From Escherichia coli (GTDB lineage: Bacteria; Pseudomonadota; Gammaproteobacteria; Enterobacterales; Enterobacteriaceae), in assembly GCF_041886205.1 (NCBI RefSeq), contig NZ_CP169029.1: 64,000 nt of DNA. The stretch is one strand, 5' to 3'. The position numbers are program-made. This document shows positions 47,001-50,000 of this stretch, piece after piece; the stretch's first letter is position 1, and each line of letters opens with the position of its first letter.

Positions 47001-50000
47001 CCCCAGCAACAGCAAAGAGAGTAGCGCGCTACTTAATGGTTCTGCACAGCTCAAAATGCTGGCTTTTGGACCGCCAATTAATTGTGCTCCTTTCAGGTAC
47101 AGACTAAATGTCAGGGACGTACCAATGACCACCAAATAAAAAAACGCCAGAATCAAACTGCCGTTAACGACAAAGTTTGTTCCTTGTCTGGCATAAAAAG
47201 GCAACAGAATCAGACCGCCAATCAGCATACTCCAGCCGACGACTGGTAACGTGCCATAGCGGGCAATTAGCGTTGAGGGATAGGTGGTATAGAATGCAGC
47301 AGCAAATGCCGAGGCAATGCCCCAGAACAACGCGGCAGGAGAGATCGATAATGACGTCGGATTACCGTGTGTCACCAATAAAAAAGTCCCGACCAGCGAT
47401 GTCAAAATAGCGCAGAAAACCAGAATGCCCGGGCGCGATTTACGCACCAGTGAGAACCAGGCGACGATAATCGTCGGTGAGAGGAATTGCAGCACCGTTG
47501 CCGTGGCTGCGTTCGATTTTTCGATGGTTAGCAAAAAAGTGAGCTGTACAGTTAGCGCGCCAACCACGGAAAAAATCAGCAGGCTAATGGCATCTTTATG
47601 ATTGTTAATAATAGAAAAGATTTTATCGCCATGAACAAATGACAGCGTCAGTAGAATCAAACCGGCGAATATCAAACGCGTCATAGTCAAAAACTGCGAC
47701 GACATCTGGCTTTGCTCCATGATGTATTGCGCGCAGACCCCTGAACTTCCCCACAACACGGCGGCAATCAGAACGTTCAGCATCCCCTTTCTGGTGGAAC
47801 CCATTTTTCCCTCTGCATACTGTTTTGTCGTTTATGTATGCAGGCATGATAGCAAAAATGGCGAGGATGGCTCTGTTTGCGCCACGCCGATTTTTCTTAG
47901 CCCAGACTGGTGAGCTAAATATCTTTAATAAACAGCAGGCAAATCATCGCAATACCCAACATCCCTATCGCCAGCCAGAACAACGCATGGTAGCTCCAGA
48001 TTTCAACCATAATTCCGTCAACAGAGCCGGCGATAATCCAGCCGACGCGTGAAGTATTTGCATATAACGTTGTCGCAGAGCCTATTTTTTCAGGCATCAA
48101 GTCCTGAAAATAAAGCATGCCGATACCACAGAGAATACCAAGGAAGATGGCATTAAGAATTTGCAATTCCAGCTCAACCGCCGGAGTCGTCGCCATGAGT
48201 ACGCTGGCGTAAAAACACATTCCACTCACGATAGCAATGAGCATTAATAGTCGCTTGCCAATACGTTTCATGTAATAGCCTGCGATTAACATCATCGGAA
48301 TTTCCAGACCGGCAGCGATACCAATCATTTCTCCAGCCAGTTTATCGGTTAGATGCAGTTCATCAATAATAAATAGCGGCATATTTATCATGTAGAGATT
48401 ATTCGCCGCCCACATCATTGAACAGACCACAAAAAGTAGCCGCGTATCCCGCTTCCTGTGGGTGGAGGGTAAAATTTCTACGGGTTGGGTAACGATAGGA
48501 ATATTTCTTTGTATTGATGGCAAAAACAACCAGACTATCAGTCCGCAAACAACAAATGCGATGGCAGCGGTGAGATACATCACTTTAAAACTAAATCCCA
48601 TTGCCAGTTCATAAGCGAGCGGTGGCCCGATAACCCAGGCAAGCGAGATCTGAGCACGTAAAAATGTACTGAACATGACTGTCTCACGGCCTGTTCTGTC
48701 GGCGTGTTCACGGGCGAGGGCGAACATTTGCGGGTTTGCGGTGGAAGCAAAACTACTCAGAAGTACGCCCGTTGAGAGGAGAATGAAGTAGTTGCGATTC
48801 CACGCAAAAAGCGTGCAGGCCAGCACTCCAAATAAGCAACATAGCAGAATCAGTAATTTACGGTCGCCTTGTTTATCGGAGTGCCTTGCCAGAAATTGAC
48901 TGACCAGAATTCCCATAATAGCGCTACCGGTGAAGAAAAAACCTACCATTATAGGACGGGCTTTCAGTTCATCTGCGAGGAATATACTTAGGGTAGGAGT
49001 CTGAAGAGCGCCCGCAATACCCGTCAGAAAGGCGACAAGTAAAAATGCCGCGGCAGTGAGATCAAGTATTTTTGATGGAGTGGTAGCCGTTTTTTGCATT
49101 CTTCTGAATCACCGGGCGAAAAAATATAACTGAGTTACAAATAAGTACCAGTCGAATGAGTATTGTATTAAGAATTTTTGAGTATCGCTGATACAACCAG
49201 AAAGCAATGCTAGCGCAATATTATAGGGCCAGCAATTGAGATTATTAGCAAAAGCATGTTAAGAATTAATTACCGAATTTATATATTAATTATAGTAAGG
49301 CAATGAGCTATTTTTGATAGTAAAAATAAAACAAGTTGATTTGATATATTAAATGAACAAATTAATCTTGATGGCAGTCTGATTATTGGTGAAGTTTATA
49401 GTCAGTTTTTTTCGCCAGCGGTTAAAGAAATAGAATAGTCGTATAAAAAAGGGTGTTCTGGGGCGAGTAAAACAACATCTTCACCTTAATGGCGATACAG
49501 TTGGCTGAGAGTCAGCAGGGGGGCAAATCACCTGCAAATAAACACGGCGCATACTGGCGTGAATATCGCGGATGCGTTCGAGGACAGAAGAACCGACAGG
49601 CGGATTCTTCAGCCGCTCATCGTCCATCACAAAACCTTAGACCAGGTATTCCTGAAGCCGATTGAATATTGAGCAGTAGAAAATATCTGGATTGACAGTA
49701 TTACAAGGGGTTGGAGAACGTCAGGAGAGGCATTTTGGCGGAAGATCACAGGAGTCGAACCTGCCCGGGACCGCTGGCGGCCCCAACTGGATTTGAAGTC
49801 CAGCCGCCTCACCGGAGACGACGATCTTCCGCGCCTCGATTGCTACATGGAGGCGGGGCGCATTATAGCTACTTCCTTGAGTTTCTACATCCCCCAGATC
49901 AGTTTTTTCCGCCTAATACACGCAGCGTATTATCACGAAAGCATTATAGTTCATATAAAACCCATATTTTACAATGATATATGAGCGGAATTAACGCTAC

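What the first reader, a model, noticed from the sequence alone, without database searches (positions are those of the whole stretch)
49100..49835. selC integration hotspot appears unoccupied
selC (49736-49830, minus strand) has its 3-prime end facing setC across only 636 bp of AT-rich DNA with no integrase or ORF of 60 aa or more. No LEE/PAI-type island is inserted here, which supports a commensal or lab-type background despite the three small accessory insertions elsewhere in the window.
Basis: partly seen in the sequence, partly recalled or inferred. Interest (0 to 1): 0.25.

Follow-up and report, generated by a model that had tools for sequence, protein, structure and literature searches.

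The report
Empty selC site with rhuM fossil
The selenocysteine-tRNA gene selC, a well-known landing site for pathogenicity islands in E. coli, carries no island here and looks exactly as in K-12, but the "empty" gap beside it holds an already-annotated dead fragment of the gene rhuM (pseudogene yicT), so the finding is correct but ordinary.

Summary
selC (tRNA-Sec) is at 49736-49830 on the minus strand and setC starts at 49099. The 636-bp gap between them is colinear with E. coli K-12 MG1655, with no indel and one mismatch. The window contains no integrase remnant and no duplicated selC 3' end, so no island sits at selC.

The gap is not featureless AT-rich DNA. Positions 49496-49657 (52.5% GC) are a decayed internal fragment of a RhuM-family gene: codons 121-185 of 345, with an in-frame stop and two deletions (tblastn E=6e-16). 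MG1655 annotates it as pseudogene yicT (b4653), and PGAP calls it a rhuM pseudogene. Intact rhuM lies directly downstream of selC in other E. coli strains and in several other Enterobacterales, and the literature lists it as a gene of Salmonella SPI-3. The site therefore carries a fossil of older selC-linked cargo. The remaining 396 bp (32% GC) is the region upstream of setC.

The inference about strain background is weak. Only 46% of 5,424 complete E. coli genomes have this contiguous junction. They include strains labelled STEC serotype O113:H21 and ETEC, whereas the lab strain BL21(DE3) has an island of at least 20 kb at selC. setC itself is missing or truncated in about a third of genomes.

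Verdict: already known, low interest.

The parts
49736..49830 (-). selC, the tRNA-Sec (UCA) gene: intact, single copy, CCA encoded. Its 3' end at 49736 points towards setC.
   Evidence: ARAGORN; Rfam RF01852 at 83.8 bits; no mismatch to MG1655 selC.
49721..49759 (.). The zone where islands join in other E. coli genomes (attB zone). Their matches to this window break at 49721 (15 nt past selC; O157:H7 and the full-rhuM allele) or at 49734-49736. The far junction of islands keeps a 21-24 nt repeat of 49736-49756/59. The zone is uninterrupted here.
   Evidence: Break coordinates from megablast hits; BL21(DE3) far junction GGCAGATCACAGGAGTCGAA; 21-bp direct repeat reported for EAEC 042 (PMC7058095).
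49658..49735 (.). 78-bp spacer between selC and the rhuM relic (41% GC). Positions 49721-49735 are shared with the full-rhuM allele. Positions 49658-49720 match nothing recognisable.
   Evidence: blastn against EC21GDE043; composition.
49496..49657 (-). rhuM relic, equal to K-12 pseudogene yicT (b4653). It is an internal fragment of a RhuM-family gene, codons 121-185 of 345, with an in-frame stop plus 8-codon and 3-codon deletions. The N-terminal 120 codons and C-terminal 160 codons are missing. GC is 52.5%.
   Evidence: tblastn E=6e-16, 63% identity; Pfam PF13310 E=4.6e-7 at 29.8 bits, below the 33.7-bit gathering score because only a fragment remains; PGAP 'rhuM, internal stop, incomplete' in K-12 CETR1G40 and 6EVA; MG1655 yicT 3836425-3836556 maps to window 49496-49627.
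49100..49495 (.). AT-rich block (31.8% GC; 27.9% over 49200-49450) upstream of setC, presumed to be the setC promoter/regulatory region.
   Evidence: Composition. Genomic SELEX peaks for RpoS and RpoH holoenzymes lie in the selC-setC spacer of K-12 (PMC5493296); my coordinate conversion puts them at about 49123-49221 (inference). The simple sigma-70 scan found no promoter-like site on the setC (minus) strand.
47915..49099 (-). setC, an MFS sugar-efflux-family transporter (394 aa) transcribed in the same direction as selC.
   Evidence: ORF list; Pfam MFS_1 E=7e-41; annotated setC in K-12, 6EVA and BL21.
47834..49720 (.). The polymorphic selC-yicL module (1887 bp, 43.6% GC): setC, the AT-rich block, the rhuM relic and the spacer. 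It is present in about 67% of complete E. coli genomes and replaced or truncated in the rest.
   Evidence: Megablast of 47700-49500 covers at least 80% of the query in 3655 of 5426 genomes, and other genomes stop at query position 134 (= 47833). The EC21GDE043 allele matches only up to 47833 and from 49721.

Best explanation
This is the ordinary K-12-type, island-free state of the selC locus. A single intact tRNA-Sec gene is followed by 636 bp of backbone DNA and then setC. No integrative element is present, so the 3' end of selC and the 15 nt beyond it remain an uninterrupted attB.

The gap has two parts. One is a 162-bp dead internal fragment of a rhuM gene (pseudogene yicT). It lies in the same position and orientation in which intact rhuM follows selC in other E. 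coli and other Enterobacterales. The other is about 400 bp of AT-rich DNA that most likely carries the setC promoter.

Shown: the coordinates, colinearity with K-12, absence of an att duplicate and of an integrase, identity of the relic, and population frequencies. Inferred: an older rhuM-bearing segment once lay next to selC and was eroded by deletions, and the AT-rich block drives setC.
For: - selC identity and coordinates.
- Gap-free colinearity with MG1655 over 7.5 kb, with one mismatch in the gap.
- 100% identity of the gap to other E. coli genomes, and only three differences from strain 6EVA across 12 kb.
- No selC 3' duplicate in the window, and no integrase in the Pfam scan of gap segments.
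- rhuM relic: tblastn E=6e-16 against a 345-aa RhuM, Pfam PF13310 hit, PGAP and MG1655 pseudogene annotations.
- Intact rhuM lies 52 bp downstream of selC in EC21GDE043, and 170-250 bp downstream on the same strand in Morganella, Pseudescherichia and Enterobacter. yicJ-selC synteny is kept in the last two.
- rhuM is reported as an SPI-3 gene, and SPI-3 is inserted at tRNA-selC in Salmonella (PMC3680342).
- In BL21(DE3) an island sits between selC and the same relic and setC, so the relic belongs to the backbone and predates that insertion.
- RNA polymerase holoenzyme SELEX peaks fall in the selC-setC spacer (PMC5493296).
Against: - Nothing contradicts the unoccupied state.
- A past island that excised precisely would leave no trace, so 'never occupied by a large island' cannot be shown.
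- The order of events (rhuM first, setC later, or the reverse) is not resolved.
- The consensus promoter scan found no sigma-70-like site on the setC strand in the gap, so the promoter assignment rests on published SELEX peaks and my coordinate conversion.
Confidence: 0.9

Rival explanations
1. The site is in fact occupied by a small integrase-less islet. On this view the 1.9-kb setC module (47834-49720) is the acquired DNA, and it replaced most of an ancestral selC-adjacent rhuM gene, leaving only codons 121-185.
For: - The module is absent or truncated in about one third of complete E. coli genomes, with sharp, recurrent breakpoints at 47833 and 49721.
- Its GC content is 43.6% against 51.2% for the window, with a 28% GC core.
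- In Salmonella, yicL lies 278 nt upstream of the mgtC transcription start, so SPI-3 runs up to yicL and no setC is mentioned there (PMC3641672).
- The alternative E. coli allele has selC, full rhuM, a hypothetical gene and yicL, without setC.
- rhuM next to selC is widespread in Enterobacterales.
Against: - The module has no mobility gene, no flanking direct repeats and no att scar.
- Absence elsewhere could equally be deletion or replacement. O157:H7 keeps a truncated 3' piece of setC, which argues for loss in that lineage.
- The alternative allele also carries its own degenerate selC' repeat and a second rhuM relic, so it is itself a derived, repeatedly hit state.
- No outgroup polarity was obtained. 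The flanks available in Pseudescherichia and Enterobacter reach neither setC nor yicL.
Confidence: 0.3
2. A large island (LEE, PAI or prophage-like) was present recently and excised precisely, restoring an intact attB. The empty site would then say nothing about the lineage's history.
For: About half of complete E. coli genomes lack the K-12-like contiguous junction, and most of these carry other DNA at selC, so traffic at the site is heavy. Site-specific excision restores attB exactly (general knowledge of tyrosine-recombinase elements).
Against: No positive evidence exists. The locus differs from the closest genome, 6EVA, at only three sites in 12 kb, and it is gap-free against K-12. This reading cannot be told apart from 'never occupied' using sequence alone.
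Confidence: 0.05
3. The RhuM similarity in the gap is a chance or annotation artefact, and the gap is simply non-coding spacer.
For: The fragment is short (54 codons). Its Pfam score of 29.8 bits is below the gathering threshold of 33.7.
Against: - tblastn gives E=6e-16 with 63% identity over 65 aligned positions, including the conserved FVMDDERLKNPPVGSS motif.
- Nucleotide identity to an intact rhuM is 75% over 154 nt, E=8e-30.
- It has the same strand and position relative to selC as intact rhuM genes.
- Its GC content is normal within an AT-rich gap.
- MG1655 curators (yicT) and PGAP annotated it independently.
Confidence: 0.01

Closest known systems
E. coli K-12 MG1655 selC-yicT-setC locus (b3658, b4653, b3659; 3836222-3838137)
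   Same: Same gene order, the same 636-bp gap with no indel, the same pseudogene fragment and an identical selC. There is one mismatch in the gap and 55 mismatches over 7.5 kb.
   Different: The strain is not K-12. Identity across the locus is 99.3%, and the window is nearly identical to the human faecal isolate 6EVA.
selC-integrated genomic islands (LEE of EPEC/EHEC O157:H7, selC-A of EAEC 042, AGI-3 of APEC BEN2908, the BL21(DE3) selC island, Salmonella SPI-3)
   Same: They use the same chromosomal target. The junctions of those islands map to 49721 or 49734-49759 of this window (PMC7058095, PMC2704930).
   Different: None of their hallmarks is present here: no integrase, no 21-24 nt selC 3' direct repeat and no foreign block. 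Only a rhuM fragment recalls island cargo.
RhuM family (Pfam PF13310; rhuM of Salmonella SPI-3; PADLOC phage-defence candidate PDC-S05)
   Same: The relic aligns to the central conserved part of RhuM. It lies downstream of selC on the same strand, like intact family members. The full-length E. coli homologue matches PDC-S05 at E=2.8e-173.
   Different: Only about 16% of the gene survives, with a stop codon and deletions, so it cannot encode a functional RhuM.
Alternative E. coli selC-yicL allele (e.g. strain EC21GDE043: selC, intact rhuM, degenerate selC' repeat, second rhuM relic, hypothetical gene, yicL)
   Same: The flanks are shared: selC plus 15 nt on one side, yicL and its upstream region on the other. 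Both alleles contain rhuM-derived DNA.
   Different: That allele lacks setC and the AT-rich block, has a complete 345-aa rhuM, and carries an imperfect copy of the selC 3' end.

Membership tests
Unoccupied (K-12-type) selC attachment site | A single intact tRNA-Sec gene | tested here: met
   One tRNA-SeC in the 64-kb window; Rfam 83.8 bits over the full-length model.
Unoccupied (K-12-type) selC attachment site | Uninterrupted colinearity with the K-12 selC-setC interval | tested here: met
   7501-bp ungapped alignment to MG1655, with a gap of 636 bp in both. The contiguous junction probe 49660-49810 is covered at 80% or more in 2492 genomes, including K-12.
Unoccupied (K-12-type) selC attachment site | No duplicated 3' segment of selC (no attL/attR pair) | tested here: met
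   blastn-short of selC plus 20 nt of flank against the window gave only 10-15 nt matches, with E of 1.3 or worse. No relevant direct repeat was found.
tRNA-associated genomic island (LEE/PAI/SPI-3 type) at selC | Tyrosine recombinase (integrase) gene or a remnant next to the tRNA | tested here: not met
   Pfam scan of stop-to-stop segments of the gap found only RhuM. PGAP annotation of the near-identical 6EVA locus shows no integrase.
tRNA-associated genomic island (LEE/PAI/SPI-3 type) at selC | A block of foreign DNA bounded by a direct repeat of the tRNA 3' end | tested here: not met
   No repeat and no extra DNA relative to K-12. BL21(DE3) shows what occupation looks like.
RhuM family gene (PF13310) | Significant sequence similarity to RhuM proteins | tested here: met
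   tblastn E=6e-16. Pfam E=4.6e-7 at 29.8 bits, below the 33.7-bit gathering score because only a fragment remains.
RhuM family gene (PF13310) | An intact open reading frame of about 330-350 codons | tested here: not met
   Only codons 121-185 remain, with an in-frame stop and 8-codon and 3-codon deletions. It is annotated as a pseudogene.
K-12 pseudogene yicT (b4653) | Same position relative to selC and the same sequence | tested here: met
   yicT 3836425-3836556 maps to window 49496-49627. There is no mismatch in that stretch, since the only gap mismatch is at 49249.

The most novel reading that the evidence does not exclude
The rhuM fragment and the AT-rich block may not be inert debris. 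They could be retained because they do something. Examples would be a silenced promoter or insulator element that controls setC downstream of the highly transcribed selC, or a recombination 'landing pad' that favours repeated capture of rhuM-type defence genes at selC. The two alternative selC-yicL alleles (setC module and rhuM module) would then be a maintained polymorphism and not a product of random decay.
Probability: 0.05. Interest if true: 0.35.

Novelty: already known. Interest (0 to 1): 0.08.

Why it matters
It matters little beyond bookkeeping. The result confirms that this strain has no LEE, PAI or prophage at selC and that the locus is the reference K-12 configuration. Three general points may be useful.

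- An 'empty' tRNA hotspot can still hold fossils of earlier cargo, here rhuM/yicT, whose intact relatives match a candidate phage-defence family.
- Occupancy of selC is a poor proxy for lifestyle. The site is empty in only 46% of complete E. coli genomes, empty in some strains labelled as pathogens, and filled in the lab strain BL21(DE3).
- The 'backbone' gene setC is itself variably present.

Tried and rejected
- **att scar:** I searched the whole window for selC plus its flank with blastn-short and the repeat finder. Only chance-level matches appeared.
- **Integrase remnants:** a Pfam scan of stop-to-stop segments of the gap found nothing except RhuM.
- **Other RNA genes:** a permissive Rfam scan of 47000-51000 found only tRNA-Sec.
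- **Promoters and terminators:** the consensus scan gave one promoter-like site on the plus strand and one weak terminator-like hairpin. Both counts are at or below the shuffle expectation and are uninformative.
- **Phage collection:** the only full-length hits to the gap were two 'Campylobacter phage' records carrying E. coli-like DNA, which I judge to be contamination. A Salmonella contig matched the relic at 71%.
- **Literature search for 'yicT':** it returned only unrelated uses of the string. The Blanc-Potard & Groisman 1997 paper is not held.
- **Relic-specific 22-mer against one genome per species:** no hit. I could therefore not date the relic across species. The E. coli representative evidently lacks this exact sequence.
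- **Comparison of the two rhuM relics:** the K-12-type relic and the second relic in EC21GDE043 show no detectable nucleotide similarity, so common descent of the two fragments is undecided.
- **Global MAFFT alignment of the gap with the full-rhuM allele:** it misaligned the fragment. I used BLAST instead.

Full report
**1. Checking the observation**

ARAGORN finds one tRNA in the whole window, tRNA-SeC (anticodon tca), at 49736-49830 on the minus strand. Rfam's tRNA-Sec model matches 49740-49830 at 83.8 bits. The next gene towards lower coordinates is a 394-aa minus-strand ORF at 47915-49099. It is an MFS transporter (Pfam MFS_1, E=7e-41) and is annotated as setC in every matching genome. selC and setC are co-directional, with the 3' end of selC pointing at the setC start.

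No start-codon ORF of 60 aa or more lies wholly inside the gap. The longest is 58 aa, and the two longer ones overlap the tRNA itself.

**2. Is the site empty?**

- Window 45552-53052 aligns to MG1655 3840500-3833000 without a single indel and with 55 mismatches. Only one mismatch, at 49249, lies in the gap.
- A sensitive search of the whole window with selC plus 20 nt of downstream flank found no second copy of any part of it. The best matches were 10-15 nt at E of 1.3 or worse. The repeat finder gave only short chance repeats.
- I listed every stop-to-stop segment of at least 25 codons in the gap and scanned the ten most relevant against Pfam at E up to 1. No recombinase or integrase signal appeared.

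No LEE-type, PAI-type or prophage-type element sits at selC in this sequence.

**3. What is actually in the gap**

The gap is not uniform. Positions 49100-49495 are 31.8% GC, falling to 27.9% over 49200-49450. Positions 49496-49657 are 52.5% GC.

The GC-normal block is a gene fragment. Megablast against complete E. coli genomes showed that PGAP annotates a 'rhuM: RhuM family protein' pseudogene there, flagged 'internal stop; incomplete; missing N-terminus and C-terminus'. MG1655's curated record has pseudogene yicT (b4653) at 3836425-3836556, which converts to window 49496-49627.

I verified the relic directly by tblastn with a full-length 345-aa RhuM taken from E. coli EC21GDE043, where it lies 52 bp downstream of selC.

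- The protein aligns to window 49657-49496 on the minus strand over its residues 121-185, at 63% identity and E=6e-16.
- The alignment contains an in-frame stop, an 8-codon deletion and a 3-codon deletion.
- The nucleotide match is 75% over 154 nt, E=8e-30.
- Pfam sees the fragment as Virulence_RhuM (PF13310) at E=4.6e-7.
- About 16% of the gene survives. The N-terminal 120 codons and C-terminal 160 codons are gone.

The 63 bp between the relic and the conserved 15 nt next to selC match nothing.

**4. Why a rhuM fragment next to selC makes sense**

rhuM is listed among the genes of Salmonella SPI-3, the island inserted at tRNA-selC (PMC3680342).

Among complete E. coli genomes, a sizeable minority carry an intact 'virulence RhuM family protein' gene directly beside tRNA-Sec. 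This was the case for 4 of the 30 evenly spaced rows, and one search shows an example.

I then scanned one genome per species with a degenerate pattern for the conserved MDDERLKNPPV motif. It returned RhuM genes from many phyla. Among the 80 loci listed, five also contain tRNA-Sec. The full-length rhuM lies on the same strand as selC in all five:

| Locus | Organism | Distance of rhuM downstream of selC |
|---|---|---|
| L019 | Morganella psychrotolerans | 170 bp |
| L058 | Enterobacter sp. ENT03 | 204 bp |
| L023 | Pseudescherichia vulneris | 249 bp |
| L009 | E. albertii | 1.7 kb |
| L046 | MAG labelled Sphingobacterium sp. | 2.8 kb |

yicJ-selC synteny is preserved in L023 and L058. In other phyla the motif-bearing loci sit near tRNA-Ser, tRNA-Met, tRNA-Phe or tmRNA genes, which fits cargo of tRNA-targeting islands.

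The intact E. coli RhuM also matches PADLOC's phage-defence candidate PDC-S05 at E=2.8e-173.

The relic in this window has the position and orientation of these intact genes. The simplest reading is that it is a fossil of an older selC-linked rhuM segment that decayed by deletion. That reading is an inference.

The relic belongs to the backbone on which later islands land. In BL21(DE3) a stretch of at least 20 kb lies between selC and the same relic and setC. It holds a tyrosine recombinase gene at the selC-side end of the fetched stretch, CP4-like genes and an autotransporter. Its far junction reads ...GAGGCATTTTGGCAGATCACAGGAGTCGAA followed by island DNA, which is a roughly 20-nt copy of the selC 3' end.

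**5. The rest of the gap**

The AT-rich 396 bp lies directly upstream of setC. A genomic SELEX study lists RpoS-holoenzyme and RpoH-holoenzyme binding peaks in the selC-to-setC spacer of K-12 (PMC5493296). After converting coordinates, which is my own inference, the peaks fall at about 49123-49221. The simple consensus scan gave nothing above shuffle expectation, so the promoter role is likely but not shown here. A permissive Rfam scan found no other RNA family.

**6.

A 151-bp probe spanning the junction (49660-49810) is contiguous in 2492 of 5424 complete E. coli genomes, or 46%. Elsewhere the match breaks in one of two ways.

- It breaks at 49721, 15 nt beyond selC. This is seen in O157:H7 and in the full-rhuM allele.
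- It breaks at 49734-49736, with the far junction retaining 49736-49756/59. This agrees with the 21-bp direct repeat described for the selC-A island of EAEC 042 (PMC7058095).

Genomes with a K-12-like gap or contiguous junction include O113:H21 FWSEC0010 (a STEC serotype, from general knowledge), ETEC4091 and O111:H2 08-3342. The laboratory strain BL21(DE3) is occupied. An empty selC is thus common and not diagnostic of a commensal or lab background. LEE can also reside at other tRNA genes outside this window (general knowledge). The independent hint about background is that the window differs from the 4.61-Mb human faecal isolate 6EVA at only three sites in 12 kb.

**7. An extra layer: setC is itself variable**

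The segment 47700-49500 is fully present in only 3655 of 5426 genomes. In most of the others the match stops at 47833, just upstream of yicL. O157:H7 keeps only a 3' stub of setC.

In EC21GDE043 the whole 1887-bp module 47834-49720 is replaced by about 2.3 kb. That replacement contains:

- an intact rhuM;
- an imperfect copy of the selC 3' end with its flank (GAGGCATTTTGGCGATCACAGGAGTCG, at L002 about 7258-7285);
- a second, older rhuM relic covering residues 166-245 (E=7e-11);
- a hypothetical gene.

In Salmonella, yicL lies 278 nt upstream of the mgtC transcription start, so SPI-3 fills the selC-yicL interval (PMC3641672).

The selC-yicL interval is therefore a polymorphic, repeatedly remodelled region. 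I could not decide whether the setC module or a rhuM module is ancestral. That alternative is kept as a rival at 0.3 and is compatible with the main conclusion.

**8. Comparison with what is known, and verdict**

Every element is already annotated: selC, yicT/rhuM pseudogene and setC. The use of selC as an island target, with 21-24 nt repeats, is textbook. The finding is a correct negative observation about a reference-type locus. Novelty: already known. Interest: low, 0.08.

The most novel reading that remains open is that the relic and AT-rich block are functionally retained, or that the two alleles are a maintained polymorphism. It has no positive support, and I put its probability at about 0.05.

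Noticed in passing
window 52058-52060 (within yicI, 51515-53833, + strand): yicI (alpha-xylosidase) carries TGG->TAG (W182*), because position 52059 is A. MG1655 and the otherwise near-identical strain 6EVA both have G there. The gene is therefore split into 181-aa and 572-aa ORFs and is a strain-specific pseudogene.
   Followed up: partly
window 31154-34465: A 3.3-kb insertion relative to MG1655 between ilvN and uhpA. It has two same-strand ORFs (31417-32706, 429 aa; 32921-34363, 480 aa) annotated as hypothetical in strain 6EVA. Neither has a Pfam or PADLOC match, so this is an uncharacterised two-gene islet.
   Followed up: partly
window 43379-44218: An 0.84-kb insertion relative to MG1655 between yicN and nepI. 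It encodes a RelE/ParE-family toxin and a helix-turn-helix partner.
   Followed up: partly
window 23138-24884: 1.7 kb holding an IS200/IS605-family TnpB (InsQ) gene and a broken tnpA replaces about 4 kb of K-12 DNA (yidJ, yidK, yidL).
   Followed up: partly
window 22343-22834: About 490 bp absent from MG1655 lies within the glv locus. Here the 6-phospho-alpha-glucosidase gene (glvG) is intact, whereas K-12 has a pseudogene.
   Followed up: no
window 44454 (nepI, 44313-45503, + strand): The window has C where strain 6EVA has T. PGAP flags nepI in 6EVA as having an internal stop, so nepI is probably intact in this strain, which is a close relative of 6EVA but not identical to it. I inferred this from the codon position and did not verify it by translation.
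   Followed up: partly
L002 6980-7285 (E. coli EC21GDE043, selC-yicL interval): The alternative allele has an intact rhuM next to selC, then a degenerate copy of the selC 3' end with its flank, then a second decayed rhuM fragment (residues 166-245). This suggests repeated capture of rhuM-bearing DNA at selC.
   Followed up: partly
L019, L023, L058, L009 (Morganella, Pseudescherichia, Enterobacter, E. albertii): Full-length rhuM lies 170 bp to 1.7 kb downstream of tRNA-Sec on the same strand in several Enterobacterales, with no integrase gene fitting in between in the three closest cases. The intact protein matches PADLOC phage-defence candidate PDC-S05.
   Followed up: partly
phage collection records MG065686.1 and MG065691.1 ('Campylobacter phage A18a / A11a'): These records contain DNA 99.8% identical to the E. 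coli selC-setC gap over all 636 bp. This is most likely contaminating or misassembled E. coli sequence in the deposited records.
   Followed up: no
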